This document shows, piece by piece, positions 28,640 through 44,242 of a DNA stretch of 64,000 nt. Every line of letters starts with the position of its first letter. The first letter of the stretch is position 1. The DNA comes from Thermoanaerobaculia bacterium (lineage in GTDB: Bacteria > Acidobacteriota > Thermoanaerobaculia > Multivoradales > UBA5704). The notes below the pieces were generated by a model. That model saw only the letters and a program-made list of their open reading frames with translations, was not told the DNA's origin and did no database searches. Position numbers and translations under genes: made by a program. The DNA is taken from contig JBBSBW010000008.1 of the NCBI GenBank assembly GCA_038250865.1, positions 6,753-70,752 on the forward strand, written 5' to 3'.

Positions 28640-29244
28640 AGAACCGACTCAAGATAGGGCTGAATCACCCGGCCCACGCGATTCATCTGCGCGAAGCGCC
28701 AGAGGTCGTCGGCGCCGCCTCGGTTCATTCGAAGGTAGTCGCGTAGGGCCTCGACGGCGACGTCGATCCCGATTTTGTTGCGGAACTTAAAGCAGTCCGC
28801 GACGGTCTTGGCCGGAGAGTAGATCCGAACGGGCACGCCATCGATCGTGTGGGTCTCAACCCCTTCGATCCAGCCCGAGCCCGAGAGGTGAATCACGTGG
28901 ACCCGGAACGGCGGTGCGCTCGGTCGCCAGGCGTTGTTCGGTAGGGCGATCCAAACCTCCGGAGGATTCTGGGTGGTCAGGCCGTGAAATCGGAGTGCCG
29001 ACAGGAGGCAGATCACTCCCTGCGGGACTGCCTTGGACACCTCAGCCAGAGACCTGTAGGTGGAGCCGGTCGAATCGGGGAGGGTATAGAGGCCGCGCCC
29101 GACTCGGATCAGGTCGCCCCTGGCCGAGAGACGCTGGGCGTACTCCCGGGGTATGCCATGTGCCAGGAGGTCTCTCGGGCGCAGGACTCCGAGGTCTTTG
29201 GCAAGGAGCCGGATGCGGGAGTCGATGTCGTGTGAGGAGTTCAT
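28636..29244 (-). CDS. AbiEi-family antitoxin/transcriptional regulator (type IV TA)
   Basis: ATG at 29242-29244: MNSSHDIDSRIRLLAKDLGVLRPRDLLAHGIPREYAQRLSARGDLIRVGRGLYTLPDS (N-terminal wHTH of AbiEi), then C-terminal domain. It is upstream of AbiEii with a 4-nt overlap. Confidence 0.7.
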   Translation of the reverse strand: MNSSHDIDSRIRLLAKDLGVLRPRDLLAHGIPREYAQRLSARGDLIRVGRGLYTLPDSTGSTYRSLAEVSKAVPQGVICLLSALRFHGLTTQNPPEVWIALPNNAWRPSAPPFRVHVIHLSGSGWIEGVETHTIDGVPVRIYSPAKTVADCFKFRNKIGIDVAVEALRDYLRMNRGGADDLWRFAQMNRVGRVIQPYLESVL

Positions 29245-29378
29245 GGTCACAAATCCTAGGTACTTCCGCACAACTACCTATGAATTGTGACTCGCTCAAT
29301 TGCCCAGGTCAACAGTGCAAAATGTTGGCACTTGGTCGCAAGTGCCGACGTTTCGTCCTATTGGCCTTCAGCCCACCC

Positions 29379-30941
29379 CTACTCCGGCACCAACCCCTTA
29401 GCCCGAGCCTTCCGCTCGTAGTTGGTCTCGCGATCCAACACGTCCAGGGTCTGGAAGTACAGCGCGTCGGCTTCGGCGTGGCTGTTGGCTATTGCCGTCA
29501 CTCCCAGCTTGCCGAATTCGGAGACGGCTCCGATCAGGTGGAACAGGACTCCGGAGTCTTTGGCGTGGCTGTAGTGGAGGCGGTTCTCGGTGAGGATCTC
29601 GATCAGGTCCTCGGGGATCAGGCCGCGGTAGGCCTCGGACTGGAGGTTGTCGGTCGCGCGGTAGAACTTTTGGGCTCCGGTGGGGGAGATGAACAGGCCG
29701 CTTTCGGGGTCGAGGGTGCCGCCGGTGAGGAACTGGAGGGCGAGGAACGGGTGGGTCGTGCCGCCCATTCGTAGGTTGATTTCGAGCGCCGAGCAGTCCC
29801 AGTTGTCGGTCTGCGCGTCGCGCCAGACCAGGAAGTCGACCGCGAAGCGGCTGACCACGCCGTTTCTCGCCAGAACCTCGCCGATTTTGATCGCCTGCTC
29901 CTGGATGTAGCGCCGGTAGTCGTCGTGCGCCGGGAACTTGCAGCCGAGGAACACCTGGTTGCTCGGGCCGCCGAGGATCTGGTCGTGGGTGGAGATCGGC
30001 AGCACCTCGCCGTGCGGGCTGATCCGCAGCTGGGCGGAGGGGGACATCTTGTCCTTCCCCTCGATCCACTCCTCGACGATCCCCTGCATCCGGCGGTACT
30101 TGTCGAAATAGCTATCGACATTTTCGGAAGGGACCGAGAATTCGAGGTTCGCCAGCTCGCGCCGGACCGAGGAAAGGCCGCGATCCTCCGGGTAGCGAAA
30201 GACCGCGTTGCCTTCGCCCGAGAAGCTGTCGTTCAGCTTGACCACCGCGCGGCGAATTCCTGGCCGCTCGCGGTCGAGATCGACCAGCGCCTCGGCGACA
30301 TCCACCTCGTCGCGCAGGTCTTCTTTGCCGAAGGGCAGCGCCACGCCCGCTTCACGAAACACCTTGCGGCTGCCCGATTTCGTTCCCAAGTGGGCAAGAT
30401 CGGGGTCGGCGCCGTTCATCGGGATGCCGAGCAGCACCGCCAGGCGGCGCTCGAAGGGCGTCGAGTTGAAAACCGTGAGATAGGCGCGCGAGGAGTCTTG
30501 AATGCCCTCGCGAATCCGCTCGATCAACCGAGGACGTTCGAGAATCTTCTCGGTGAGCGAGCGGGGCGAGGCGTCATAGGCGCAGAGCAGCGTCAGGCGC
30601 GAGCGGGCGTGGCTCGCCGGGATGCCCGCGAGCAGGTGGAAGTAATAGTCCAGGATCATCGGGTGGATCGGTTCCGACGTCACATAGACCACTCGGGCCC
30701 GGGGGTTGCGCAGGCGGATCAGGAGGAACAGCAGCCGCTCTTCGTAGAAGTTCGCGCCGGCCAGTTTTTTCAGCTCGCTCTGGTCGAGCGTGAGCGACGG
30801 CACGACGACCGAGGTGTGGGGCTCCTCGTCGCGCATGGTCAGAGCTTCCCAGACCTCCAAGAGGCGAGGCTGGAGATCCCGGAACATCTCGCGTTCGAGA
30901 TCGAGGTTCAGATCGGACAGAAATGGCGGCTTTGGAATCAC
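29379..30941 (-). CDS. ATP-grasp family protein, PGM1-like peptide-ligase-related (pre-ATP-grasp plus ATP-grasp)
   Basis: 520 aa. The overall pattern VVVPS...VVYVTSEPIHP...SRKVFREAGVALP...AVVKLNDSFSGEGN...RFAVDFLVWRDAQTDNWDCSALEINLRMGGTTHPF is recalled as PGM1-type ATP-grasp ligase. The assignment is from memory, not from a search. Confidence 0.5.
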   Translation of the reverse strand: MIPKPPFLSDLNLDLEREMFRDLQPRLLEVWEALTMRDEEPHTSVVVPSLTLDQSELKKLAGANFYEERLLFLLIRLRNPRARVVYVTSEPIHPMILDYYFHLLAGIPASHARSRLTLLCAYDASPRSLTEKILERPRLIERIREGIQDSSRAYLTVFNSTPFERRLAVLLGIPMNGADPDLAHLGTKSGSRKVFREAGVALPFGKEDLRDEVDVAEALVDLDRERPGIRRAVVKLNDSFSGEGNAVFRYPEDRGLSSVRRELANLEFSVPSENVDSYFDKYRRMQGIVEEWIEGKDKMSPSAQLRISPHGEVLPISTHDQILGGPSNQVFLGCKFPAHDDYRRYIQEQAIKIGEVLARNGVVSRFAVDFLVWRDAQTDNWDCSALEINLRMGGTTHPFLALQFLTGGTLDPESGLFISPTGAQKFYRATDNLQSEAYRGLIPEDLIEILTENRLHYSHAKDSGVLFHLIGAVSEFGKLGVTAIANSHAEADALYFQTLDVLDRETNYERKARAKGLVPE

Positions 30942-32316: not shown

Positions 32317-35229
32317 ATGCGCAAGCTTTCCCTCTCTCTCGTCGCTGGTCTCTGCGCGGTCTTTCTTTTCGCGTCGGGTCCGGCACATGCCGCGGCTTCC
32401 TGGCCGACTCTCGACCTGCAGTTTACGAACTCGCCGGTACCGATCCAAGCCGGCAGCGCGCTTGCGCGATTGATCCAAGAGAACCAGGACTTCTCGATGC
32501 TCCGCGCTGACGAAGCGAAGGACCTGCGCGGCCTGCCGCCGTGGCTTCGCGTCTGGTGGCGGAAGGAACATCCGGAGGTTGCCTACACGAAGGAAGATCC
32601 GACCGGCGGCTATCCACTGGTGCTGAAGGAAATCTGGGAGTGGATGCTGCATCATCAGGATCTCCTGCCCGGCACGGCCGAGGCGGATCGGGCTCCCGGC
32701 GCATCGGAAGAGGAGCTGGAAAGCGACGCCGCGATGGTGAGCGGCGAGATTCGGACCTCCGGCTCGCAGACCACGCCGCGCAGCGAATCCGACATCCGGG
32801 TCAACTACTTCGATCCGACCAAGATCATCAGCGCCAGCAACAGCATCGTAGGCGGCGGACACCAAGCGGTGTTCTTCTCGACCGACAGCGGTATGACCTG
32901 GGGTCAGACGACGCTGCCGTTCACCGCGACCGACGCCTCGCACTCCGATCCGACCGTCGAGTGGACCTCCGACGGCCGGGCCTGGTCGACCACGCTCGGC
33001 ATCGTCGGCAGCGTGCTCAAATTCCGCACTTACGTCTCGACCGACAACGGCGCCAGTTGGACCTTCGAGGCGACCCCCTCGGCGGCGCAGACCAACGTCG
33101 ACAAGCAGATGGTGTGGGCGGATCACAGCGCGACCTCGCCGTTTAAAGACAACCAGTATGCGATCTGGCACAACGGCACCCCGGCCTTCATGAGCACCCG
33201 GAACGCGGTCACCAACACTTGGGGCGCGCCGATCCAGGTAAGCGGCGCGGAATCGACCGGCACGGCGATCGGCGGCGATGCCAAGACCAACTCGTTCGGT
33301 GACGCGTTTGGCTTCTGGCCGACCACCACGAACGCCCGGGTGTTCGTGGTCAAGTCGACCACCGGCGGGACCTCGTGGGGCACGCCGGTCCAGGTGGCGA
33401 CCACGTTCGACACCTTCGACATCGGCTGCCCGTCGTTCAACAACCGGCGCGCGCTGATCTACATCTCCGGCGGCGCCTATCGGACGGCGACCAAGAACCT
33501 GGTCTACGCCACCTGGAACGACCTGTCGGGTGAAGCCGGCTGCACCGCGCCGGCCAACGAGCCGGGCGCCAACGCCGCTTCGACCTGCAAGATCCGCATC
33601 TGGTTCGCCCGCTCGACCGACGGCGGGGCGACCTGGGAAGCGAAGAAGATGATCAACAACCAGGCGAGCTTGAACGACCAGTTCAACCAATGGCTGGTGG
33701 TCGACGAGACGACCGGCGCGCTCGGCCTGATGTACTACGACACGGTGGGCGACGCCACGCGCAAGAAGGTCGACGTCTGGTACCAGTCGTCGTTCACCGA
33801 TGGCGTTTCTTGGAACCCCGCGGTCAAGGTCACATCGGCGCAGACCGACGAGACGACCGGCGGCCAGGACAGCGGCAACCAGTTCGGCGACTACAACTCC
33901 CTGTCCGGCATCGGCGGCACTTTCTGGCCTTCCTGGACCGATCGCCGCGCGGGAGCCCGCGAGGAAATCTGGACCGCCAAGGTCGCGGACGGCGCCTGCG
34001 CCTTCCCCGGGTCGCCGACCATCGGCACCGCCACCCCGACGGCTCCGAACCAGATCACGGTGACGTTCGGCAACGGCGCTCCGCCCTCCTCGGTGTTCAA
34101 CGTCTACCGCGCGGTCGGCACCTGCGCCTCGCCGGGAACGTTCTCGCGCATCGCCTCCGGCATCGCGGGGAGCCCCTACCTCGACAGCACCGTTTCCGGT
34201 TCCGTCACCTACGCCTACAAAGTGGCGGGAGCGGATGCCACGAACACCTGCGAGTCGGCGCAATCCGGCTGTGTTCAGGCGACCGCGACCGGCGTTTGCA
34301 CCCTGCCGCCGACCTTCGCGGGGGTTGCCTCGGTGACCAATGGCGCCACCTCTCTCTGTTCGATCGGCGTCGCCTGGGCGGCGGCCACCGCGCAATGCGC
34401 GGGTCCGGTCACCTACAACGTCTATCGCTCGACCACACCGGGTTTCGCCCCGATGGTCGCCAACCGGATCGCGGCCGGCGTCTCCGGCACGTCGTTCAAC
34501 GACAACACCCCAGGCATGTTGATGAACGGCACCACCTACTACTACAAGGTGCGGTCGGTCGACGCGGGCAACAGCGCCGAGGACACCAACACGGTGGAGA
34601 AGAGCGCGCAGCCGACCGGCCCGATCGCGGTGGCGAACTTCACCGAGACGTTCGAAGGGGCGGGCGGTTTCGACAACGCGGGTTGGTCGCATGCGGCGCT
34701 TTCCGGAGCGAACGACTGGACCCTGGTCACCTCGCAGAGCCAGACCCCCACCCATTCCTGGAACTCGGTGAGCCAGCCGTCGGTCTCCGACCGCGTGCTG
34801 GTATCGCCGGGCTTCGTCGGCCAGGCGGGAAGTACACTGTCGTTCTTCCACACCTTCGCGTTCGAAAGCGCCACGTCCTGCTTCGACGCCGGCACCCTGG
34901 AGTTTTCGACCGACGGCGGAATGACCTGGACGGTCCTGCCGGATGCGAACTTCACGGCCGGCGGTTTCACCGGCACCGTCTCGGCGAGCTTCTCCAACCC
35001 GATCGGCGGCAAGCGTGCCTGGTGCAACGGCACGATCGGCGCGATGACCCAGGTGACGGCGAACCTCGCTTCGCTCTCCGGCATGAGCTTCAAGCTCCGC
35101 TGGCATGAGGGAGACGATTCGAGCGCGATCGCCACCGGCTGGTTCGTCGACTCGGTCAATCTCAACAACGTCGGCACGGCGAGCGTCTGCGCGATGCCGG
35201 TGTCGCTGACTGGATTTTCGATCGAGTAA
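32317..35229 (+). CDS. Large secreted BNR/Asp-box (sialidase-like) protein with two FN3-like domains and a C-terminal MAM-like domain
   Basis: Signal peptide MRKLSLSLVAGLCAVFLFASGPAHA. BNR repeats FFSTDSGMTWGQ, YVSTDNGASWT, VVKSTTGGTSWGT, FARSTDGGATWEA, SFTDGVSWNP. C-terminal ~394 aa are near-identical to the C-terminus of the next gene. Confidence 0.7.
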   Translation: MRKLSLSLVAGLCAVFLFASGPAHAAASWPTLDLQFTNSPVPIQAGSALARLIQENQDFSMLRADEAKDLRGLPPWLRVWWRKEHPEVAYTKEDPTGGYPLVLKEIWEWMLHHQDLLPGTAEADRAPGASEEELESDAAMVSGEIRTSGSQTTPRSESDIRVNYFDPTKIISASNSIVGGGHQAVFFSTDSGMTWGQTTLPFTATDASHSDPTVEWTSDGRAWSTTLGIVGSVLKFRTYVSTDNGASWTFEATPSAAQTNVDKQMVWADHSATSPFKDNQYAIWHNGTPAFMSTRNAVTNTWGAPIQVSGAESTGTAIGGDAKTNSFGDAFGFWPTTTNARVFVVKSTTGGTSWGTPVQVATTFDTFDIGCPSFNNRRALIYISGGAYRTATKNLVYATWNDLSGEAGCTAPANEPGANAASTCKIRIWFARSTDGGATWEAKKMINNQASLNDQFNQWLVVDETTGALGLMYYDTVGDATRKKVDVWYQSSFTDGVSWNPAVKVTSAQTDETTGGQDSGNQFGDYNSLSGIGGTFWPSWTDRRAGAREEIWTAKVADGACAFPGSPTIGTATPTAPNQITVTFGNGAPPSSVFNVYRAVGTCASPGTFSRIASGIAGSPYLDSTVSGSVTYAYKVAGADATNTCESAQSGCVQATATGVCTLPPTFAGVASVTNGATSLCSIGVAWAAATAQCAGPVTYNVYRSTTPGFAPMVANRIAAGVSGTSFNDNTPGMLMNGTTYYYKVRSVDAGNSAEDTNTVEKSAQPTGPIAVANFTETFEGAGGFDNAGWSHAALSGANDWTLVTSQSQTPTHSWNSVSQPSVSDRVLVSPGFVGQAGSTLSFFHTFAFESATSCFDAGTLEFSTDGGMTWTVLPDANFTAGGFTGTVSASFSNPIGGKRAWCNGTIGAMTQVTANLASLSGMSFKLRWHEGDDSSAIATGWFVDSVNLNNVGTASVCAMPVSLTGFSIE

Positions 35230-35295
35230 GCGAACGCTTCGTTGGCTTCGGTTCCGCGCCCCCCGGCGAGATGCATCGCCGGGGGGCGTTTTTCG
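34045..35295 (+). repeat. Copy 1 of a ~1.2 kb duplicated module (FN3-FN3-MAM-like coding region plus terminator)
   Basis: Aligns with 37798..39062 at roughly 75-80% amino-acid identity, with long identical nucleotide runs (e.g. ACGTCGTTCAACGACAACAC...ATGAACGGCACCACCTACTACTACAAGGTGCGG). Confidence 0.8.
35256..35295 (+). terminator. Rho-independent terminator (GCGCCCCCCGGCGA ... TCGCCGGGGGGCG + TTTTTCG)
   Basis: GC-rich hairpin followed by a T-run directly after the stop at 35229. Confidence 0.55.
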
Positions 35296-35384
35296 TCGGG
35301 AACTGTTCCGAGAGGTTTGACGGCTCGCGCCCGAGCTGATAAAAGCGCGAGGTCAAACTCGCTCCGTAGCCAATAGGGGAAGCC

Positions 35385-38300
35385 ATGAACCGAATCACCC
35401 GGTTGTCCGCCGGGCTGGTGGTCTCCGTCGCAGCGTTGCTCGCGACCACCGCCTCAGCCCAGATGATGCAGCGCAATGATCCCGGTCCGCTCGGGCGTCT
35501 CGCGACGCTCAAAGAAGCCTTGAGTCCGCCCGCTTCTACCGCGCTGCTCGATCAGACTTCGGTCGGCCTCGCCGCGAACGTCACCAGCACCTGGGGCAGC
35601 TTCCTGGGTGAGGTCGGCGGTACCTGGGTCGGCTACGTCGACAAACGGAGCGGCTACCTGGAGTTCGCGGAAGGTTCCGGCTGGCCCTGGGTTCCGGGCA
35701 ACGGCAACAACCTCGCCAAGGCGGACATCGCGCAGTACCTGGCCGGTGCCGATCAGGTCGACATCGCAACGCTCGACCGGATCGCGCGCGCCAACCTGCC
35801 AACGGTCGCTCCGCTGCTCGGGGTGGCTGACGCCGACCTGAAGCTTTCCGCCGGCCGGTCGGGACGGATGTCGGACTACCTCTGGTACGTCGATTACGAC
35901 GTCTACCGCGGCGGATGGAAGATCGAAGGCGCCCGAGTGATGTTCCGGATCAACCATGGCAACGTGGTGCAGTTCGGTTCCGAGGGCGTGCCGCCGCCGG
36001 GAATCTCCGCCCCCTTCCCGCGCCTTTCGCGCGAAGAGGCGGTCCAGGCGGTTGCGAGCTACATCGGCGGATTCACCACGAGGGACGGTCTGGTCGATAC
36101 CGGCTCGCTCAAGATGATGACTCGCGCCAAGATCGATTCCACCGCCACGGACCACTTCCGGCTCGGCGATGGCTACGGCCTGCTGCCGGTCTGGGAACTC
36201 TCGTTCCGGCGCAAAGAGGTGGTCGGCACCTGGCGCGCCCGGGTCGATGCGATCACCGGCCAGATCATCGAGTTCGGCGACGTCAACGAGTATGCCCAAG
36301 CCAAGGGCGGCGTCGTGCTCGTCCAGCCTTCTCTCGGCGAGACCAGCAAGCCGGTTCCCTTCACCAACATCTCGACCGGCGGCTTCACCAACTCGGCCGG
36401 CGTCTATACGCCCGCCGGGGCGGCGACCTCGAGCTTGAACGGCCAGTACGTCCGTCCGGTCGACAGCTGCGGCGCGATCTCGCTCGCCGCGGACGGCATG
36501 AACAACTTCGATTTTGGTTCCTCGGCGGCGAGCGACTGCTCGACCCCGGGCTTCGGCGGCGCGGGCAACACCCGTTCGTCGCGCACCCAGTTCTATTGGG
36601 TCAACCGGGTGAAGGAAGTCGGCCGCGGCTGGCTCCCGGCGGTCGCCTGGCTCTCGGCCCAGCTGACCACGAACGTCAACCTGAACCAGACCTGCAACGC
36701 CTACTGGAACGGCTCGACGCTCAACTTCTTCAAGTCGGGCGGCGGTTGCGGCAACACCGGCGAGCTGCCGAGCGTTTCGTTGCATGAATACGGCCACGGC
36801 CTGGACAGCAACGACGGCACGGGCGCCCCGCCGGAGAACGGCAGCGGCGAAACGGTCGGCGACTGGACCGCCTCGCTCGCCACCCACCTCTCCTGCATCG
36901 GCTCGGGCTTCCTGGCTTCCAACTGCGGCGGTTACGGCAACGCCTGCACCTCCTGCACGGGAGTCCGCGACATCGACTGGGCGAAGCACACCGCAAATGT
37001 GGCCTCGACCCCGGCGAACTTCACCCAGACCACCTGCCCGCAGCCCAACGCCAACAACCCGAACTACGTCGGCCCCTGCGGCGCCAACGCGATCGCCAAC
37101 GCCACTCTCACCAAGAAGCGTGAAGGGCACTGCGAGTCGTACATCTCGTCGCAGGCGCTCTGGGACCTCGCGAACCGCGACCTGCCGAGCCCCGGCACCG
37201 GCGGCGCCTGGTCGATCTCCGACCGGCTCTGGTACCTGACCCGGGCGACCACCACCAGCTTCTTTACCTGCAACACGGTGCCCACCACCTGGACCTCCGA
37301 CGGTTGCGCGGCCGGCACCCTGTTCCGCACCTTCCGGGTGGCCGACGACGACGACGGCAACCTGGCGAACGGCACGCCGCACGGCGGCTCGATCTTCGCG
37401 GCGTTCGACCGCCACAACATCGCTTGCGCCTCCGATCCGGGGTCGAACACGACGTTTGCGGCCTGCACGATTCCCACCTCGCCGACGCTTTCGCTCACCC
37501 CGTCGAACAACACGATGCAACTTTCGTGGACCTCGTCGGGCGCCGGGATCGTCTACGACGTCTATAAGAACGAGCTCGACTGCAACGCGGGCTTCATCAA
37601 GATTGCCAACGACGTCGCGACGACCAGCTTCAACGACCCGAACGCCGCGAACTTCTTCAACTACAACTACCAGATCATCGCCCACCCGACCGGCACCGAG
37701 GCCTGCGGCGCGCCGCCGTCCAACTGCGCCACGGCAGCTCCGCTGCCCTGTACCGCTCCCTCCTCGCCGACGGTCGGCACGGAGACCGCTTCGGCGCCCA
37801 ACCAGATCACGGTGACCTGGTCCAACGGTGCGCCGGCTTCGGACTTCTTCAACGTCTACCGGGCGGTCGGCACCTGTGCCTCGCCGGGACCGTTCACCCA
37901 GGTTGCGAACATGTTGGCGGGAAGCCCTTACATCGACAACACCGTTTCGGGTAGCACGACCTACGCATACAAGATCTCAGGAACCGAGACGACGGGCGTT
38001 TGTGAATCGCCCCAGACCACCTGCGTCCAGGCCACCGCTACGGGCGTCTGCACCTTGCCGCCGACGTTCGCGGGCATCGCTTCGGCATCCAACGGTGCCA
38101 CGTCGCTCTGCTCGGTCGGCGTCTCCTGGGCCGCCGGAACCGCGCAGTGCGCGGGACCGGTCAGCTACAACGTCTACCGGTCGACCACCATGGGCTTCAC
38201 CCCGATGGTCGGCAACCGGATCGCCTCAGGCGTCTCCGGCACGTCGTTCAACGACAACACGCCGGGCATGCTCATGAACGGCACCACCTACTACTACAAG

Positions 38301-38993
38301 GTGCGGGCGGTCGATGCAGGCAACAGCTCGGAAGACACCAACACGGTCGAGAAGAGCGCCGTGCCGAGCGGGCCGATCGCTGTGGGCACCTTCACCGAGA
38401 CGTTCGAAGGGCCGATGGGCTTCGACAACGTGGGCTGGACGCACGCTGCTCTGTCCGGCGCCCCGGATTGGACCCTCTCGACCGCGCAGTCCCAGACCCC
38501 GACCCACTCGTGGAACTCGACCAGCATCGCCACGGTCTCGGATCGCGTTTTGGTCTCGCCGGCATTCATCGCCGCAGCCACCACGACGCTGTCGTTCTGG
38601 CACACATTCGCTCTGGAGCAGAGCGCCACGCCGACCACCTGTTTCGACGGCGGCACGCTCGAAACCTCGGTCGACGGCGGGATGACCTGGGTCGTCATTC
38701 CAGATGCGGCGATCACTGCCGGTCCGTTCATCGGCACGGTCTCCGCCTCGTTCGGTAGCCCGATCGCCGGCAAGAAGGCCTGGTGCGGCAACACGACGAT
38801 CGGTCCCTTCAGCCAGGTGACGGTCAACCTCGCCGCGTTCGCGGGCCAGACGATGAAGCTGCGTTGGCGCGAAGGGGATGACAGCAGCGTTGCCCGGATC
38901 GGCTGGTTCGTTGACTCTGTGGTTCTGACCAACGCCGGAACGGCGAGTGTCTGCGCCATGCCGGTCGCGTTGACCGGGTTCTCGGTCGAGTAG
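35385..38993 (+). CDS. Large secreted zinc metalloprotease (HEYGH motif, M36/fungalysin-like or M4-like) with two FN3-like domains and a C-terminal MAM-like domain
   Basis: Signal peptide MNRITRLSAGLVVSVAALLATTASAQ. Propeptide-like N-terminal region. Zinc site SVSLHEYGHGLDSNDG. C-terminal ~398 aa are paralogous to the C-terminus of the preceding gene. Confidence 0.75.
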   Translation: MNRITRLSAGLVVSVAALLATTASAQMMQRNDPGPLGRLATLKEALSPPASTALLDQTSVGLAANVTSTWGSFLGEVGGTWVGYVDKRSGYLEFAEGSGWPWVPGNGNNLAKADIAQYLAGADQVDIATLDRIARANLPTVAPLLGVADADLKLSAGRSGRMSDYLWYVDYDVYRGGWKIEGARVMFRINHGNVVQFGSEGVPPPGISAPFPRLSREEAVQAVASYIGGFTTRDGLVDTGSLKMMTRAKIDSTATDHFRLGDGYGLLPVWELSFRRKEVVGTWRARVDAITGQIIEFGDVNEYAQAKGGVVLVQPSLGETSKPVPFTNISTGGFTNSAGVYTPAGAATSSLNGQYVRPVDSCGAISLAADGMNNFDFGSSAASDCSTPGFGGAGNTRSSRTQFYWVNRVKEVGRGWLPAVAWLSAQLTTNVNLNQTCNAYWNGSTLNFFKSGGGCGNTGELPSVSLHEYGHGLDSNDGTGAPPENGSGETVGDWTASLATHLSCIGSGFLASNCGGYGNACTSCTGVRDIDWAKHTANVASTPANFTQTTCPQPNANNPNYVGPCGANAIANATLTKKREGHCESYISSQALWDLANRDLPSPGTGGAWSISDRLWYLTRATTTSFFTCNTVPTTWTSDGCAAGTLFRTFRVADDDDGNLANGTPHGGSIFAAFDRHNIACASDPGSNTTFAACTIPTSPTLSLTPSNNTMQLSWTSSGAGIVYDVYKNELDCNAGFIKIANDVATTSFNDPNAANFFNYNYQIIAHPTGTEACGAPPSNCATAAPLPCTAPSSPTVGTETASAPNQITVTWSNGAPASDFFNVYRAVGTCASPGPFTQVANMLAGSPYIDNTVSGSTTYAYKISGTETTGVCESPQTTCVQATATGVCTLPPTFAGIASASNGATSLCSVGVSWAAGTAQCAGPVSYNVYRSTTMGFTPMVGNRIASGVSGTSFNDNTPGMLMNGTTYYYKVRAVDAGNSSEDTNTVEKSAVPSGPIAVGTFTETFEGPMGFDNVGWTHAALSGAPDWTLSTAQSQTPTHSWNSTSIATVSDRVLVSPAFIAAATTTLSFWHTFALEQSATPTTCFDGGTLETSVDGGMTWVVIPDAAITAGPFIGTVSASFGSPIAGKKAWCGNTTIGPFSQVTVNLAAFAGQTMKLRWREGDDSSVARIGWFVDSVVLTNAGTASVCAMPVALTGFSVE

Positions 38994-39062
38994 CCCGGCC
39001 GCCCACTTCCCTCCGTCCTCTCTCCGCCCCCGGCGATCCTTTTCGCCGGGGGCGTTTTTTGT
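37798..39062 (+). repeat. Copy 2 of the ~1.2 kb duplicated C-terminal module plus terminator
   Basis: See copy 1. It ends with VCAMPVALTGFSVE (copy 1 ends VCAMPVSLTGFSIE), and the downstream hairpin terminators are also similar. Confidence 0.8.
39026..39062 (+). terminator. Rho-independent terminator (CGCCCCCGGCGA-TCCTTTT-CGCCGGGGGCG + TTTTTTGTT)
   Basis: Perfect 11-12 bp GC stem followed by a T-run after the stop at 38993. Confidence 0.6.
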
Positions 39063-39219: not shown

Positions 39220-40311
39220 ATGAGTGATCTTCCTTCCGAGCCTCGCGAGACCGCCCGTTCCGTACCCGGTATCGATATCGATTGGCTATTTGTTTCCAGC
39301 AGTTTGCGGGTCTCCAGCTGGCGCTGCCTCGCACAGAACCCAGAGCTTTCCGGCGATCGGAGCCAGCCCTGGCACGTTCTAGGTTTCACTCACGTCGGGG
39401 CCTTCGTGATGCAGGCCGAGGGGCGCGACATCGTGGTCGATGCCAATACCGTGATGTTGCACAGCCCGGGAATCCCCTACCGCACGGCCCATCCGTTCGG
39501 CGGTGGCGATCGCGGCAGCTCGCTGGTGCTTCGGCCGGGGGTGCTGCGCGAGATCGTCTGCCGTTACGACCCGGCGCGGGTCGAGAGCGATCCCGAGACG
39601 TTTCGCTTCCCGGCCGCTCACGCAATCTGTCCCCCGAAAGGCTACCTGCTACAGCGCCTGCTGTTTGAGCTGCTCTCCCGGCCGACCGGTGCAGATTTGA
39701 TGCGGATTGAAGAGACCGGCCTGTCGCTCGCGGAATCCGCGATCCGCGAGTGCTTCCGTCGGGTCGTGCCCTCCGAGAGGCAGGCGCGGGCGGCGACCGT
39801 GCGCCAGCACCGCGAGTGCGTCGAGGCGGCCAAGGGATTGCTGGTGGAGCGTTTCCGCGAGCCACTCCGGCTCGAAGACCTGGCGTTAAAGCTCAACGTT
39901 TCGGCCTGCCATCTGTCGCGCCTATTCAAGCGCGAGACCGGCCTGCCGATCCATCGTTATCTGAACCGCCTCCGTCTTCGCTGCGCTTTGGAGGAGCTGC
40001 CGGAGTGCGGCCGCGACCTCACCAGCCTCGCCTTCGACCTCGGCTTTTCAAGCCACAGCCACTTCTCGGCTAGCTTTGGCCAGGAGTTCGGGCTCACGCC
40101 GTCGCAGGTGCAGCAGATCGCCCATTCGGGCGACCTGCCCGAGAGCTTCGAGCGCCGCGGAAAGGCGCCTCAAGCTCCTGCGCGCTGGGCGTCCTCGGGG
40201 CGCGCGATGCTCTCGGCGCTCTCCGCCTCGCTTCCCGCGGCGACCGGGCCGAGGCGGGAGGCGACCGCCGCGTATTTGGTGTCGAGGGTGTCCCAGAGCG
40301 CCGCGATCTGA
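39220..40311 (+). CDS. AraC/XylS-family transcriptional regulator
   Basis: ATG at 39220 after an AT-richer promoter-like stretch. C-terminal dual HTH LEDLALKLNVSACHLSRLFKRETGLPIHRYLNRLRLRCALEEL...LTSLAFDLGFSSHSHFSASFGQEFGLTPSQ. The ORF runs to 40311, overlapping the convergent rdgC by about 140 nt, so the true stop may lie earlier through an undetected frameshift. Confidence 0.7.
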   Translation: MSDLPSEPRETARSVPGIDIDWLFVSSSLRVSSWRCLAQNPELSGDRSQPWHVLGFTHVGAFVMQAEGRDIVVDANTVMLHSPGIPYRTAHPFGGGDRGSSLVLRPGVLREIVCRYDPARVESDPETFRFPAAHAICPPKGYLLQRLLFELLSRPTGADLMRIEETGLSLAESAIRECFRRVVPSERQARAATVRQHRECVEAAKGLLVERFREPLRLEDLALKLNVSACHLSRLFKRETGLPIHRYLNRLRLRCALEELPECGRDLTSLAFDLGFSSHSHFSASFGQEFGLTPSQVQQIAHSGDLPESFERRGKAPQAPARWASSGRAMLSALSASLPAATGPRREATAAYLVSRVSQSAAI

Positions 40312-41165
40312 TCGAGGCGCAGGCCCAGCTCCTCGGTCCAGTGCTCGGCCTTGACCGCTTCGAGCTTCACGCCTGAGAGGCGGTACGACAGGGCGTCGAA
40401 TTTGAGCGGCACGGTGCCGACCAGGATTTTCGCGGCGAGCATCTCTGCGCCGTCGGCCACCAGGCGGTGCAGCTCGTTCAACACGCCGCCAGCGAGGTTA
40501 ACTTTCGCCTCGCGGGTGGCGAGCCGGACCGAGCCGGTCTCGGGCTCGATCAAGACCTCTGGATCTTCGAGCAGCGCGCGCAGGAACCGGCAGCCGAGCA
40601 CCGACTGGCCGGGCTCCTTCGGGATCACGATGTCGCTCGACTCGTCGGCCTCCGGCGCGTGATCGAGCCAGGGAGCTTTGAACTCGGTCGCCACCCCCGC
40701 TTGGCGCAGCAGAGCGAGCACTATGCCGAGAGCGGTCTTGGTGGCGCTGCCCACGAAGAGCAGCGAGTTGTCCAACACGCATTCGAGGATTCGCGTCCGT
40801 GGGCGTTGGCCGATCAGCAGCTCATGCTCGGCCAAGGCGCGTAGCTCTTTCCGCCGTTTGCCGCCGACATAGGGCCGGCCGGTCAGCTCGATCTCAGTTT
40901 TCACCAGGCCGGCCACCCGCTCGCGCACCGCCGTCGCGTCCGGGGTGCGTTTGTCGATCCGTACGCGGAACGCCCAGCGTCGAACCCCGACCTCGTACGG
41001 CGCGTCGGGCTCGAACGGCACGAAGCCGATCCGTTCGCGCACCTCTGAACCCGGCTCGATCTCACGAAACGGCGCGGCGTCGAAATCCGGCCCCTCCGGC
41101 GGCACGGCGGCATTGAAACGGGTGCAGGCAACGGCACCATAGAGTAGGCCCATCCGAATCCCCAA
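40170..41165 (-). CDS. rdgC: Recombination-associated protein RdgC
   Basis: About 330 aa. N-terminus LLYGAVACTRF aligns with RdgC (LMVYRL). The overall length and charge pattern match this nucleoid-associated family. The exact start is uncertain (41165 or 41153). Confidence 0.65.
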   Translation of the reverse strand: MGIRMGLLYGAVACTRFNAAVPPEGPDFDAAPFREIEPGSEVRERIGFVPFEPDAPYEVGVRRWAFRVRIDKRTPDATAVRERVAGLVKTEIELTGRPYVGGKRRKELRALAEHELLIGQRPRTRILECVLDNSLLFVGSATKTALGIVLALLRQAGVATEFKAPWLDHAPEADESSDIVIPKEPGQSVLGCRFLRALLEDPEVLIEPETGSVRLATREAKVNLAGGVLNELHRLVADGAEMLAAKILVGTVPLKFDALSYRLSGVKLEAVKAEHWTEELGLRLDQIAALWDTLDTKYAAVASRLGPVAAGSEAESAESIARPEDAQRAGA

Positions 41166-41264: not shown

Positions 41265-42530
41265 TCAGGCGTGAGCGACCCCTAGGTACTCGGGAGGGGT
41301 AAACCCGGGGAAAATCTCGCCGATCGCCGGGTTGCCCAGGCGGCGCTCGACGATCTCGGCGAGAACGGTGCGGAAATCGGTGGTCGCCGCCAGATCGCCC
41401 GGTCCCGAGAGGGCGGCCGGCGCGAGCCCCGGCCAACGCCCATGGACCCTGCCGCCGACGATGCCGCCGCCCAACAGCAGCATGCAGTTGCCGTCGCCGT
41501 GATCGGTTCCGCCAGAGCCGTTCTCTTTCGCCCGGCGACCGAACTCGCTCATCACCACGACCGTGATTCGCCCGATCCGGTCGGCGAGGTCGGTCGCGAA
41601 CGCCTGGAGGCTTGAGGCAAGGTCGCCTAGCAGACCGGCCATCTGCCCCTCGGAGCCCCCTTGGGAGGCGTGGGTGTCCCAGCCGCCCGCGTCGATGCAG
41701 GCCACCTCCATCCCCAGGTCGGCCTTGATCATCTGCCCCACCTGTTGAAGCGCGAGCCCCAACTCGGATGCCGGGTACTTGGCACCGTTGGCGGGTGGAT
41801 TCTTCCCCGGGTCGGCTGCGGCGAGCCGGGCGATCGCCTCGAAGGTGAGCTGACCCTGGCGGTCGAGGAAACCGTCGCCGTCGTAGAGTTTGGCGAGGGA
41901 GGCCTGGAAGCGGGCGACCTCCGCGGCGCCCTGGCCGGGCCGGCCCTCCAGGTGGAAGTCGGCGATCGAAGCGAGCGCGGTGGCCGGCACTGAGCCGCGC
42001 AGGGAGGCCTGCAGAATCGGGCCGATGCCCACGCCGCGAAACGGCGAGTCGTTGTGGTTGACCAGAGATTGGAGATGGCGGCCGATCCAGCCGTCCGGCT
42101 GGGTCTTGTTGCCCGGCGTGCCCCGCTCGATCGAAGCCATGGCGTCAAAATGGGAATGGCTCGCTTCGGGCGAGCCGATCGCATGCACAGGAGCGAGCAG
42201 CCCGTCCTGCCAGAGTTCGGCAAGCGGCGCGAGCGCCGGATGAAGCCCGAAGAAACCGTCGAGGTCGAGCGCCCCTTTCGTCGAGCCCGGCTCGCCGAGC
42301 GCGAGAGTGGGACGCAGGGAGCGGTAGTGCGCGTCGCCATAAGGAACGATCAAATGAAGACCGTCGGAACCGCCGCGCTGGAACAGGCAGACCAGGACGT
42401 CGCCGGTGGTGGCCCGGTTTTCCGGGTGGGCGGCGAACGCCATCCGGGCGAGGCCGTTCGGCAAAACGGCGGGGAGCGCAAGCGCGCCGCTCAAGGTGCG
42501 GAGGAAGGAGCGTCGGGTCGTGGCGGGCAT
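41265..42530 (-). CDS. DUF1501-family protein (Tat-signal, sulfatase/alkaline-phosphatase-like fold)
   Basis: ATG at 42528-42530: MPATTRRSFLRTLSGALALPAVLP (twin-arginine signal). Conserved GGWDTH and SEFGRR...GTDHG motifs. Confidence 0.8.
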   Translation of the reverse strand: MPATTRRSFLRTLSGALALPAVLPNGLARMAFAAHPENRATTGDVLVCLFQRGGSDGLHLIVPYGDAHYRSLRPTLALGEPGSTKGALDLDGFFGLHPALAPLAELWQDGLLAPVHAIGSPEASHSHFDAMASIERGTPGNKTQPDGWIGRHLQSLVNHNDSPFRGVGIGPILQASLRGSVPATALASIADFHLEGRPGQGAAEVARFQASLAKLYDGDGFLDRQGQLTFEAIARLAAADPGKNPPANGAKYPASELGLALQQVGQMIKADLGMEVACIDAGGWDTHASQGGSEGQMAGLLGDLASSLQAFATDLADRIGRITVVVMSEFGRRAKENGSGGTDHGDGNCMLLLGGGIVGGRVHGRWPGLAPAALSGPGDLAATTDFRTVLAEIVERRLGNPAIGEIFPGFTPPEYLGVAHA

Positions 42531-42549
42531 GGTTGCGATCTCCGGAAAG

Positions 42550-44067
42550 TCAGCGCCACTGGAAATAGGGGGAATCGAGGAGGAGCGCCGCAATCTCGGG
42601 CGCGCGGGCGGCGAGGGTCGGGACCGGAAGGTGCGCGCCGCCCGGTCCGCCCGCCGCCGCGTGGGCGATCAGAGCGTTTCGATCGGCGGCGAGGAGCGCG
42701 CGGTGAAGCAGCCGGTCGGTCAGGGCGTCGACCAGCTGGGTGGGGGTCGCCGCGGCCGAGGCGCGGACCCAGGCCGGCCAATCGATGCGCACGCCGGGCG
42801 CGCGGCCTCCGGCCAGCCGGAGCATGAGATTCCAGCGCCCGAGCAGGCCGTTGGTATTGATCCAGGCGCCAGCGGCATCCGGGTAACCGTTCGGCGCCGG
42901 CCAGTTGAAGGGTGCCTGGCCGAGCAGCTTGGTGCCGTGGAGGAGGAGGCGCGCGGCATCAGTCGAGGCGGAGGCCGGCAGCGCGCGGACCGCCGCGGCG
43001 AGCACCTCGATCGGTCGCCGCACCTTCGCGTCGGCGGACTCGAACAACTGGGCCGAATGGAGAACCGTCCGCACCGTTTCGCGCAGGTCGCCGCCGGTCG
43101 TGGTGAACGTGAGCGCCGCGGCATCGACCGCCGCGGCCGGCGGGGTGTCGGCCAGGAAGCGACGACAGAGCTTGGTCGCAATGAACCGGGCGGTCGAGGG
43201 ATGGGTGGCGAGCCGGTCGAGGACGATTTCGCCGTCGCGCTGGCCCCCGCCGGCCGGGATCGCCACGCCGAGCACCCTCTTGGCGCCTTGATCGTGGCTG
43301 CGCGCATCGAAGCGAAATTGCCGTCCGTCTCGGCGCTCGATCGTCCAACCGGTGAACGCCCGGGCCACGTCCTGGACGTCAGCCTGGGTATAACCCCCCT
43401 CGACCCCCAAGGTGTGGAGCTCCATCAGCTCGCGGGCGTAGTTCTCGTTCGGGCCGCCCGCGATGTTGGTAAAGTTGTCCAGGAAAACGAGCATCGCCGG
43501 ACTCCTGGCCGAAGCGCCCAGCAGATCGCGAAACCGGCCGAGCGCGTGACGCCGGATGACCTCGCGGTCGTCGGCGGTTTTGAGCACCGAGGTCGGACCG
43601 TCCTGGTGGTAGATGTTGAAGTGGTTCGACCAGAAATCGACCAGCACCTCGAACAGTTGGCGGCGGCTTGCGACCGCCCGGTACAGGGTCGCCGATTTGA
43701 GGTCGATCGCGATCTCGTGCCGCGCGTCGCCTTCGAACGGCCCGGCGGGTAGGCGGACGACCGTAGGAAAAGCGCGTGCCACCTCGCGATCGACGGCCGA
43801 ATCGTCGATCCGTTCGGGTTGGAGCTGCTCGTCCAGGTAGGCCTCGATACCGATCGCGGAAACCCGCGCGAGATCCTCCGGGCGTGGACCGAAGCTGGTG
43901 CGGGTAAGGAATAGCAGCTCGCGCGAAGGGCTCGGCGGCGGAGCCGGGGCGGTGGCGGCCTGGCCGAGGAAACCTCCCGCACCGGGACGTACTCCGAGGA
44001 GCGAGAGCGCCGCGCCTGCACCCGCGGTAGCCAAGAGCCCTCTGCGGGAAACCTCTTCTAGAGCCAT
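42550..44067 (-). CDS. DUF1800-family protein
   Basis: ATG at 44065-44067: MALEEVSRRGLLATAGAGAALSLLG. Motifs FWSNHFN, LDNFTN, ENYARELMELHTLGVEGGYTQADV typical of DUF1800. It is immediately upstream of DUF1501, a conserved pair. Confidence 0.8.
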   Translation of the reverse strand: MALEEVSRRGLLATAGAGAALSLLGVRPGAGGFLGQAATAPAPPPSPSRELLFLTRTSFGPRPEDLARVSAIGIEAYLDEQLQPERIDDSAVDREVARAFPTVVRLPAGPFEGDARHEIAIDLKSATLYRAVASRRQLFEVLVDFWSNHFNIYHQDGPTSVLKTADDREVIRRHALGRFRDLLGASARSPAMLVFLDNFTNIAGGPNENYARELMELHTLGVEGGYTQADVQDVARAFTGWTIERRDGRQFRFDARSHDQGAKRVLGVAIPAGGGQRDGEIVLDRLATHPSTARFIATKLCRRFLADTPPAAAVDAAALTFTTTGGDLRETVRTVLHSAQLFESADAKVRRPIEVLAAAVRALPASASTDAARLLLHGTKLLGQAPFNWPAPNGYPDAAGAWINTNGLLGRWNLMLRLAGGRAPGVRIDWPAWVRASAAATPTQLVDALTDRLLHRALLAADRNALIAHAAAGGPGGAHLPVPTLAARAPEIAALLLDSPYFQWR

Positions 44068-44242
44068 GAGTCTGTCCTCCGATGTCTCGTCCGTTGCGGG
44101 ATCGACAGGGGAGGAACCCGCGACCTGGCGGATTCCTGCGCGGCCGGCGATCATTCGTGGCTCAGGCAAGCCTCCTCGCTCCTTCGGGTAGTGTTTTTCG
44201 GTTGCCTCCTCGCTCCAGGCGCGTTTCCTGCTAGCCTCTCTC

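What the first reader, a model, noticed from the sequence alone, without database searches (positions are those of the whole stretch)
32317..39062. Two adjacent giant secreted hydrolases share a recently duplicated 1.2-kb FN3-FN3-MAM-like tail and terminator
A BNR/sialidase-like protein (970 aa) and an HEYGH zinc metalloprotease (1202 aa) have unrelated catalytic N-terminal regions but C-terminal ~395 aa at roughly 75-80% identity. Long identical DNA stretches occur, and both end VCAMPV(S/A)LTGFS(I/V)E before similar hairpin terminators. This is a direct repeat about 3.7 kb apart, indicating module shuffling or gene conversion. The shared tail may be a common anchoring, substrate-targeting or secretion module. 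The repeat is also a substrate for deletion that would fuse the two enzymes.
Basis: seen in the sequence. Interest (0 to 1): 0.55.

Follow-up and report, generated by a model that had tools for sequence, protein, structure and literature searches.

The report
Two neighbouring secreted enzymes share a tail
Two adjacent genes for secreted enzymes in an uncultured soil Acidobacteriota genome carry the same 410-residue non-catalytic binding tail; this is an old arrangement patched by gene conversion, not a recent duplication, and is an ordinary case of domain shuffling.

Summary
The repeat is real. Gene A (32317-35229, BNR/Asp-box propeller) and gene B (35385-38993, HEYGH thermolysin-like metalloprotease) share a tail of 410/414 aa at 74% aa and 75% nt identity, about 3.75 kb apart. 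Both end in CAMPVxLTGFSxE and are followed by terminators with the same stem.

It is not recent. Overall dS is about 0.8. Fourfold-site identity is 0.48-0.67, against 0.38 by chance. The longest exact runs are 33 and 32 nt. The A-B pair with both tails is syntenic in at least two related MAGs, where orthologues (82-88% aa) are closer than paralogues.

Segment trees show patchy gene conversion. FN3-2 was homogenised at the base of this clade (85% aa in the window). The jelly-roll domain was converted independently in two sister genomes (bootstrap 100 and 94), but not in the window.

The tail models confidently (pLDDT 94) as FN3-FN3 plus a MAM / cleaved-adhesin / reelin-B jelly roll. It is a widespread module in Thermoanaerobaculia and Holophagae, fused to BNR, M28, trypsin-like, S8, C25 and thermolysin-like enzymes, with interchangeable C-terminal end-pieces.

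The likeliest role is shared substrate or surface targeting. The last 10 residues may be an autonomous C-terminal tag, which is speculative. Overall this is a new member of a known kind, of modest interest.

The parts
32317..35229 (+). Gene A, 970 aa. Sec signal peptide (aa 1-25), BNR/Asp-box beta-propeller region (Asp-boxes at aa 188, 241, 347, 433, 492), then the shared tail.
   Evidence: Weak PDB sialidase matches (E=0.022). Pfam BNR_2 is recorded for a homologue 65% identical to A over aa 308-967 and hits 26 of 84 tail-bearing N-terminal regions. GC3 is 0.88.
33997..34296 (+). Tail A, FN3-1 (aa 561-660).
   Evidence: AlphaFold model pLDDT 94; Foldseek matches tandem FN3 domains. 68% aa and 70% nt identity to B; the A and B clades are separate in the tree.
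34297..34641 (+). Tail A, FN3-2 (aa 661-775). This is the homogenised patch. Its core, 34360-34665, is 86% nt identical to B 38112-38417.
   Evidence: 85% aa identity to B against 49-68% to other family members.
34642..35190 (+). Tail A, MAM / cleaved-adhesin / reelin-subrepeat-B-like jelly roll (aa 776-958). It contains an Asp-box (STDGGMTW, aa 864) and ends at a nearly invariant Cys958.
35191..35226 (+). C-terminal peptide AMPVSLTGFSIE-COOH (motif PVxLxxFx[VI][EDQ]).
   Evidence: The last 10 residues have pLDDT 61 and are coil. The motif is conserved in A/B orthologues and distant homologues. It is also the C-terminus of an unrelated ~230-aa secreted family.
35256..35293 (+). Intrinsic terminator of gene A: 14-bp GC stem, 6-nt loop, T-run.
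35385..38993 (+). Gene B, 1202 aa. Sec signal peptide, FTP/PepSY-like propeptide, thermolysin-like gluzincin domain, an extra FN3 (aa ~693-788), then the shared tail.
36783..36797 (+). HEYGH zinc-binding motif (aa 467-471). The putative third ligand is Glu489 in GSGETVGDW.
   Evidence: H, E, H, E and D are invariant in 41 homologues. The predicted fold matches LasB 8cr7.
37749..38954 (+). Tail B: FN3-1 (aa 789-888, 37749-38048), FN3-2 (aa 889-1003, 38049-38393), MAM-like jelly roll (aa 1004-1190, 38394-38954).
38955..38990 (+). C-terminal peptide AMPVALTGFSVE-COOH.
39025..39060 (+). Intrinsic terminator of gene B: 12-bp stem with the same CCCCGGCGA/TCGCCGGGG core as A's terminator, then a T-run.

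Best explanation
Genes A and B are an old, syntenically conserved tandem pair of Sec-exported hydrolases in a Thermoanaerobaculia/Holophagales-type Acidobacteriota genome. A is a BNR beta-propeller that is probably a glycosidase. B is a thermolysin-like zinc protease with a propeptide.

Each gene carries the same non-catalytic C-terminal module. It consists of two FN3 spacer domains, a MAM / cleaved-adhesin-type jelly roll that most likely binds a ligand, and a 10-12-residue C-terminal peptide. Each gene also has a terminator with the same stem.

The module belongs to a large, promiscuous family that this bacterial class appends to many extracellular enzymes. Its most likely job is to bring different catalytic domains to the same polymeric substrate or cell-surface site. 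This would resemble carbohydrate-binding modules, or the adhesin domains of gingipains.

The two copies are kept alike by purifying selection (dN/dS about 0.26) and by occasional short-tract gene conversion between the neighbouring copies. In the window's lineage the last detectable event homogenised only the second FN3. That event predates the split from three sister MAGs.

Shown: the repeat, its age, its fold, its distribution and the mosaic phylogeny. Inferred: ligand binding, co-targeting and the role of the terminal peptide.
For: Repeat and divergence:
- Searches give 74% aa and 75% nt identity, dS 0.78, dN 0.20 and fourfold-site identity of 0.48-0.67.

Synteny:
- The order ATP-grasp, unknown gene, A, B, AraC, unknown gene is kept in L002 and L004. 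Orthologues there are 82-88% identical.

Mosaic trees:
- FN3-1 separates an A clade from a B clade.
- FN3-2 puts all A and B copies of the four close genomes in one tight clade (79-88% nt) that excludes L005_A and L007_A (68-75%).
- In the MAM segment, L003_A pairs with L001_B (same MAG) at bootstrap 100 and 89% nt. L004_A pairs with L004_B at bootstrap 94. win_A and L002_A keep the A-type MAM.
- Fourfold-site identity in the La3 pair is 0.75 in MAM against 0.48 in FN3-1 (p=0.0014).
- In L004, L008, L012, L015, L021 and L028, the two tails at one locus are each other's best match in at least one segment.

Fold:
- Model pLDDT is 93.9 and Foldseek matches tandem FN3.
- Pfam PF21471 is above threshold for A.

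Promiscuity:
- Tail-bearing relatives carry BNR_2, Trypsin_2, M28, LVIVD, S8 or C25-like N-terminal regions, and some carry C-terminal SLH repeats.
- 3744 cluster representatives match the tail profile at E<=1e-30.

Export: signal peptides and conserved cysteines fit an exported protein.
Against: - No ligand, localisation or activity data exist; the function rests on fold analogy.
- In the window pair itself, the synonymous-site excess in FN3-2 is only marginal (0.67 against 0.52, Fisher p=0.08). The case for conversion therefore rests mainly on comparison with MAG contigs. Those could in principle contain assembly chimeras, and in La3 the A and B genes lie on different contigs.
- Bootstrap support for some FN3-1 and FN3-2 nodes is modest (28-87).
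- A strong terminator between A and B argues that they are not co-transcribed, so a functional partnership is not required.
- The 79 comparison loci came from a scan with a single peptide pattern, so copy counts are lower bounds.
Confidence: 0.72

Rival explanations
1. Recent duplication. A 1.2-1.3 kb tail-plus-terminator segment was copied recently from one gene onto its neighbour.
For: The homology starts exactly at a domain boundary and runs to the stop codon. The terminator stems are the same. FN3-2 is 86% nt identical over 306 nt.
Against: dS is 0.78. Fourfold-site identity in the MAM segment is 0.48 against 0.38 by chance. The longest exact run is 33 nt. Both tails are already present in orthologous A-B pairs of L002 and L004 and in La3, and orthologues are closer than paralogues (87% and 88% against 74%).
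Confidence: 0.04
2. Common descent and constraint only. The two tails diverged once, long ago. The higher FN3-2 identity reflects stronger purifying selection, with no gene conversion in this lineage.
For: dN is lowest in FN3-2 (0.03-0.08). The synonymous excess in the window pair is not significant (p=0.08).
Against: FN3-2 is the least conserved segment across the family (49-68% to other members, and 52-58% between B and its homologue P0010). Yet it is the most conserved segment between A and B (85%). Segment trees are incongruent with high bootstrap in the MAM segment of sister genomes. Several independent tandem pairs show within-locus best matches.
Confidence: 0.15
3. The tail, or at least its last 10-12 residues, is a sorting or attachment signal rather than a substrate-binding module. 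A lineage-specific machine would recognise CxxPVxLxxFx[VI][EDQ]-COOH and export or anchor the cargo.
For: The terminal peptide is conserved across A, B and distant homologues. It is modelled as disordered (pLDDT 61). All 24 members of an unrelated ~230-aa secreted family end the same way. In homologues the same position holds other end-pieces, including SLH anchors and a DGFESGD...W...P-COOH peptide that also occurs without the MAM domain. In several homologues the jelly roll weakly matches NCBIfam 'choice-of-anchor J'; by my recollection, not checked here, that family is defined by preceding varied anchors.
Against: No known sorting-signal model matches. There is no hydrophobic helix or basic tail. 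No candidate sorting enzyme or secretion gene lies next to the pair. The peptide resembles the first beta-strand of a following domain in L047 (VDLLSFNA...), so it could be a structural remnant. The full module is often internal in larger proteins.
Confidence: 0.2

Closest known systems
Gingipain / HagA cleaved-adhesin domains of Porphyromonas gingivalis (RgpA, Kgp, HagA)
   Different: Only 18% sequence identity. The shared unit here is FN3-FN3-jelly roll, present once per protein and not repeated. The two carriers belong to different enzyme classes (BNR propeller and gluzincin) rather than C25 paralogues. There is no T9SS C-terminal domain. The copies are 75% identical, not identical. Proteolytic release of the adhesin has not been shown.
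MAM-like domains of InhA (M6) and of sortase-dependent M36 metallopeptidases (NCBIfam NF038111, NF038112); 'choice-of-anchor J' (NF038128)
   Different: Scores are far below the family cut-offs (38-78 bits against 1500-1700). The catalytic region of B does not match the M36 or M6 models. There is no GlyGly-CTERM or MYXO-CTERM. A and B themselves do not hit choice-of-anchor J at E<=0.1.
Thermolysin-like (M4) and fungalysin (M36) proteases with an FTP/PepSY propeptide
   Same: B has HExxH plus a Glu 18 residues downstream, all invariant. Foldseek matches LasB 8cr7 (TMt 0.60), the vibriolysin MCP-02 propeptide chain, the PepSY protein YpeB and the Aspergillus M36 chain.
   Different: There is no Pfam or NCBIfam catalytic hit and no PDB sequence hit. 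Model pLDDT is only 77.5. B belongs to a separate family of at least 657 proteins that appears confined to Acidobacteriota.
Concerted evolution of bacterial paralogues by gene conversion (for example tufA/tufB; general knowledge, no paper retrieved here)
   Same: Short-tract, non-reciprocal homogenisation between nearby paralogous sequences gives mosaic phylogenies.
   Different: Here it acts on only one module of two otherwise unrelated genes. It is patchy and infrequent, so the copies stay about 25% diverged.

Membership tests
Fibronectin type III tandem | Two consecutive ~100-residue seven-stranded beta-sandwiches with FN3 topology. | tested here: met
   Model pLDDT 93.9. Foldseek E 2.4e-7, probability 1.0, to LAR FN1-2 and neogenin FN5-6. 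The PDB 3mpc Fn3-like protein matches B 790-868 by sequence.
MAM / reelin subrepeat B / cleaved-adhesin jelly roll | A ~170-190-residue jelly-roll beta-sandwich with sequence or fold similarity to MAM-type domains. | tested here: met
NCBIfam choice-of-anchor J (NF038128) | Score at or above the curated cut-off of 30 bits. | tested here: inconclusive
   No hit for A or B at E<=0.1. Homologues score 19-29 bits. One protein, the SLH-ending L066, scores 39.4.
Rhombosortase- or myxosortase-dependent M36 metallopeptidase (NF038111, NF038112) | Full-length match above the cut-off, plus a GlyGly-CTERM or MYXO-CTERM sorting signal. | tested here: not met
   Only the MAM-like part aligns. Scores are 38-78 bits against 1500-1700. 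The proteins end 12 residues after the jelly roll, with no transmembrane signal.
Gluzincin (thermolysin-like, clan MA(E)) metallopeptidase, for gene B | HExxH with a downstream Glu as third zinc ligand, and a thermolysin-type two-lobe fold. | tested here: inconclusive
   The motif residues are invariant in 41 homologues. The predicted fold matches LasB (TMt 0.60) and M4/M36 propeptides. However, pLDDT is 77.5 with low-confidence loops, there are no sequence-model hits, and activity is untested.
GH33 sialidase, for gene A | Six-bladed propeller with Asp-boxes, plus the catalytic Arg triad and Tyr/Glu nucleophile pair (RIP motif). | tested here: inconclusive
   Five Asp-boxes. Weak PDB sialidase hits over one blade (E 0.022). 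Pfam BNR_2 is recorded for a homologue 65% identical to A over aa 308-967 but does not hit A itself at E<=0.1. Catalytic residues were not mapped and A was not modelled.
Known C-terminal sorting signals (PEP-CTERM, GlyGly-CTERM, MYXO-CTERM, LPXTG, T9SS CTD) | A signature motif followed by a hydrophobic helix and basic residues, or an ~80-residue T9SS beta-sandwich. | tested here: not met
   No Pfam or NCBIfam hit. The sequence after Cys958/Cys1190 is 12 residues, not hydrophobic, and ends in Glu.
Gene conversion / concerted evolution between paralogues | Adjacent segments of the same pair give significantly incongruent trees. Paralogues within a genome cluster together against orthologues. | tested here: met
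   Met in sister genomes. In the MAM segment, L003_A+L001_B has bootstrap 100 and L004_A+L004_B has 94, whereas FN3-1 groups by orthology. For the window pair itself only an older FN3-2 event is inferred, and its synonymous-site support is marginal.

The most novel reading that the evidence does not exclude
The last 10-12 residues, Cys-x(2-3)-P-V-x-L-x-x-F-x-[VI]-[EDQ]-COOH, are a previously undescribed autonomous C-terminal tag of Thermoanaerobaculia and Holophagae. It could serve for sorting, for surface attachment, or for donating a strand to a partner. It would be interchangeable with a second short tag (LFxDGFESGDxxAWSxxxP-COOH) and with SLH anchors. The two enzymes in the window would then be cargo of one dedicated, still unknown, localisation system.
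Probability: 0.18. Interest if true: 0.7.

Novelty: new member of a known kind. Interest (0 to 1): 0.3.

Why it matters
The finding corrects a tempting reading. A 1.2-kb direct repeat at 75% identity is not a fresh duplication here. It is a long-lived shared module that neighbouring genes exchange in patches.

It also annotates two large 'hypothetical' proteins of a poorly known soil lineage. One is a thermolysin-like protease family with at least 657 members and no Pfam catalytic model. The other is a BNR propeller. Both carry a well-modelled FN3-FN3-MAM targeting module found in thousands of metagenomic proteins.

If the terminal peptides prove to be sorting tags, they would open a route to the unknown protein-localisation systems of the classes Thermoanaerobaculia and Holophagae. 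As it stands the biology is ordinary domain shuffling.

Tried and rejected
- Sequence searches of B's catalytic region found no protease family. This covered Pfam, NCBIfam, PDB phmmer and a 41-sequence PDB profile. Only structure prediction plus Foldseek placed it.
- I asked whether the shared terminator stem is simply a common terminator in this genome. It is not: there are no other copies in 64 kb, and in 946 kb of related loci it occurs only after A/B orthologues.
- I looked for a third tail copy in the window and found none.
- I tested whether the window pair shows a significant synonymous-site excess in FN3-2. It is only marginal (p=0.08).
- I considered membership of the sorted M36 proteases and rejected it, because only the MAM part aligns.
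L005 has A-AraC-B' and La3 has A-RHS. Neither is the expected A-hybrid-tail-AraC product.
- Literature searches on Thermoanaerobaculia peptidases and on tandem-paralogue conversion gave nothing specific.
- The flanking genes (ATP-grasp/PGM1-like, AraC, DUF1501/DUF1800, AbiEi) offer no secretion or sorting partner.
Full report
**1. Observation**

The window holds two co-oriented ORFs with coding-type composition (GC3 0.88). Gene A is 32317-35229 (970 aa). Gene B is 35385-38993 (1202 aa).

- BLASTP aligns A 561-970 with B 789-1202 at 74% identity over 414 columns. Nothing else in the two proteins aligns, apart from a weak FN3-to-FN3 match.
- At DNA level, 34012-35228 aligns with 37764-38992 at 74.9% over 1233 nt. 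The spacing is about 3.75 kb. The longest exact runs are 33, 32 and 22 nt.
- No further copy exists in the 64 kb window.
- Both proteins end VCAMPV(S/A)LTGFS(I/V)E.
- Each stop codon is followed, after about 30 unalignable bases, by a strong hairpin plus T-run (35256-35293 and 39025-39060). The two stems share the core CCCCGGCGA/TCGCCGGGG.
- That pattern is absent from the rest of the window (0.05 expected). In 946 kb of related loci it occurs only after A or B orthologues. The terminator therefore belongs to the repeated unit.
- The 24-nt 'repeat family' found is simply the Asp-box coding motif.

**2. Age of the repeat**

- Codon-position identities are 78%, 82% and 59%, against a chance third-position identity of 40%.
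- Nei-Gojobori gives dS 0.78, dN 0.20 and dN/dS about 0.26.
- Fourfold-site identity is 0.59 in FN3-1, 0.67 in FN3-2 and 0.48 in the jelly roll, against 0.38 by chance.
- Identity is uneven. A 306-nt core (34360-34665 against 38112-38417) is 86% identical, and the rest is 71%.
- This is not a recent duplication. Both copies are under purifying selection.

**3. Comparative evidence**

A pattern scan of species-representative genomes returned 79 distinct loci. Nearly all come from Thermoanaerobaculia, Holophagales or Holophagae MAGs. The window's own genome is not among them.

- The closest loci, L002 and L004, carry the same gene order: ATP-grasp, unknown gene, A, B, AraC, unknown gene. A is 87% and 82% identical, and B is 84% and 87% identical. 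Both tails and the same C-terminal peptide are present.
- A third MAG (La3) has A on one contig, followed by an RHS-repeat gene. Its B lies on another contig and is 5'-truncated.
- Orthologous tails (84-88%) are closer than the window's paralogous tails (74%). The shared-tail arrangement therefore predates these lineages.

**4. Mosaic phylogeny**

Segment-wise identity matrices and nucleotide NJ trees with 200 bootstraps disagree with one another.

- In FN3-1, A and B form separate clades with about 70% nt identity between them.
- In FN3-2, all A and B copies of the four close genomes form one tight group (79-88% nt). It excludes the more distant A orthologues L005_A and L007_A (68-75%).
- In the jelly roll, La3's A pairs with La3's B (bootstrap 100, 89% nt). 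L004's A pairs with L004's B (bootstrap 94, 84% nt). The window's A and L002's A keep an 'A-type' domain, about 71% identical to B.
- In La3, the synonymous-site contrast between the jelly roll and FN3-1 is significant (0.75 against 0.48, p=0.0014). In the window, the FN3-2 excess is only marginal (p=0.08).
- Across the wider family, FN3-2 is the most variable segment (49-68%). Between A and B it is the most similar (85%).
- Six tandem tail-bearing pairs in the related loci (L004, L008, L012, L015, L021, L028) are each other's best match in at least one segment. In L012 the jelly roll is 93% identical within the pair, against 74% for the best outside match.
- The simplest reading is recurrent, short-tract gene conversion between neighbouring copies. 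In the window's lineage only an old FN3-2 event is visible.

**5. What the tail is**

- With a 44-sequence alignment, AlphaFold2 gives pLDDT 93.9. Only the last 10 residues are uncertain (pLDDT 61, coil).
- Foldseek finds tandem FN3 domains.
  - the MAM domains of RPTPmu, PTPRK, SR-C and neuropilin;
  - InhA2.
- Pfam Reelin_subrepeat-B is above threshold for A.
- NCBIfam aligns the domain to the MAM-like part of sorted M36 peptidases. In homologues it aligns weakly to 'choice-of-anchor J'.
- Nearly invariant cysteines and clear Sec signal peptides fit an extracytoplasmic protein.

**6. Distribution of the module**

- The tail profile matches 3744 50%-cluster representatives at E<=1e-30. Roughly 70 of the best 150 carry the whole three-domain unit in one stretch (my count from the table), and it is often internal rather than C-terminal.
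- Among the tail-bearing ORFs in the loci (91), N-terminal regions include BNR/BNR_2 (26 of the 84 regions scanned), Trypsin_2 (8), M28 (7), LVIVD (4) and the B-type protease. S8 subtilase also occurs among database hits.
- After the conserved Cys the proteins end in one of several interchangeable pieces:
  - the window's PVxLxxFxxE peptide;
  - a more common LFxDGFESGDxxAWSxxxP peptide;
  - a ~130-residue domain ending DVNGYFQ;
  - SLH repeats;
  - in L047, a further domain followed by a region I recognised by eye as C25-like peptidase (no model search run).
- This is classical module shuffling.

**7. The catalytic parts**

- A has five Asp-boxes and weak sialidase similarity. Pfam BNR_2 is recorded for a homologue 65% identical to A over aa 308-967. 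Its specificity is unknown.
- B has no Pfam, NCBIfam or PDB sequence match in its first 690 residues.
- B belongs to a family of at least 657 proteins, mostly Thermoanaerobaculia where a source names them. That family carries varied C-terminal modules: P-domain, PPC, FN3 and CARDB.
- HEYGH (aa 467-471), Glu489 and Asp493 are invariant.
- The model (pLDDT 77.5) matches PepSY and vibriolysin propeptides, LasB (TMt 0.60) and an M36 protease chain.
- B is therefore a propeptide-bearing thermolysin-like gluzincin of an unnamed family.

**8. Mechanism**

The best-supported view is as follows. The tail is an accessory module: two FN3 spacers and a jelly-roll binding domain. It delivers different catalytic domains to a common insoluble substrate or surface. 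Purifying selection and occasional conversion keep the neighbouring copies compatible.

The closest described analogue is the sharing and recombination of cleaved-adhesin domains among rgpA, kgp and hagA in Porphyromonas gingivalis (PMC5266723).

Binding and co-targeting are inferred, not shown. The strong terminator between A and B suggests separate transcription.

Recombination between the direct repeats would delete B's catalytic region, not fuse the two enzymes. With 75% identity and exact runs of at most 33 nt, I would expect such recombination to be rare (general knowledge of homologous recombination, not tested here).

**9. Most novel reading not excluded**

The terminal peptide is conserved from close orthologues to distant homologues, for example CVPLPVELQSFQVQ and CNTSPVELLTFSVD.

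All 24 members of an unrelated ~230-aa secreted family in the same bacterial classes also end in the motif, as ...N[VT]PVELMR[FL]..[EDQSN]-COOH (23 of 24 keep the Phe). The alternative DGFESGD-type ending likewise occurs on proteins that lack the jelly roll.

This pattern is what an autonomous C-terminal tag would look like. But no known signal model matches and no partner gene lies nearby. The peptide could also be a remnant first strand of a lost domain, as in L047. I put this reading at about 0.18.

**10. Verdict**

'Recent' is wrong. 'Module shuffling or gene conversion' is right, and is now documented comparatively. The function is probably targeting. The finding is a new member of a known kind, of modest interest (0.3).

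Noticed in passing
window 35191-35226 and 38955-38990; L027 11339-12061 (minus strand); proteins P0207-P0230: The extreme C-terminal motif PVxLxxFx[VI][EDQ] of A and B also ends an unrelated ~230-aa signal-peptide protein family with no Pfam domain. All 24 retrieved members end ...N[VT]PVELMR[FL]..[EDQSN]; 23 of 24 keep the Phe. This suggests an autonomous C-terminal tag.
   Followed up: partly
L024 7263-9350; L068 4258-6735; L070 12213-13199 (minus strand); L077 7483-9924; and most tail-bearing ORFs in L008-L080: A second short C-terminal ending, LFxDGFESGDxxAWSxxxP-COOH, is the commonest end-piece after the jelly roll. It also occurs on ORFs without that domain. No NCBIfam or Pfam model recognises it. 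Tandem paralogues share genome-specific variants of it, for example AWGFTWP and AWGFTFP in L039.
   Followed up: partly
window 35463-37484 (B aa 27-700): B's catalytic region belongs to a family of at least 657 proteins, mostly Thermoanaerobaculia where named, with no Pfam catalytic model. Only structure prediction identifies it as thermolysin-like with an FTP/PepSY-type propeptide.
   Followed up: yes
L003 7395-12116; L001 1-140: In the La3_concoct.109 MAG, A's orthologue is followed by a 1573-aa RHS-repeat ORF instead of B. B's orthologue lies on another contig, starts just after the HEYGH codons, and is preceded by 140 nt of unrelated sequence. This points to an insertion, a rearrangement or an assembly break.
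   Followed up: partly
window 41265-44346: A DUF1501/DUF1800 gene pair lies between the conserved unknown gene (40170-41165) and the solute-binding protein gene (44243-45379). It is absent at the same position in the La3 contig L001.
   Followed up: no
L005 7509-11118: In a more distant relative the order is A, AraC, then a B-like protease (49% identity). The tblastn match to B ends at about aa 815, so that protease does not carry the full shared tail. B-type proteases therefore exist with and without this module at the same locus.
   Followed up: partly
L047 4000-9663: An 1887-aa ORF carries the FN3-FN3-MAM module. It is followed by a domain beginning VDLLSFNATAY... and then a region I recognised by eye as peptidase C25 (gingipain)-like; no model search was run. 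The start of that domain resembles the window's terminal peptide.
   Followed up: no
window 28636-30941: Upstream on the minus strand lie an AbiEi-type antitoxin-like regulator and an ATP-grasp / PGM1-C-domain protein. The ATP-grasp gene is 92-94% conserved across the sister MAGs L002, L003 and L004, far more than A or B.
   Followed up: no
window 32878-34929 and 38667-38690: The 24-nt direct-repeat family reported by the repeat finder is the Asp-box coding motif (SxDxGxTW). One copy lies inside each MAM-like domain, which is a reelin-subrepeat-B trait.
   Followed up: yes
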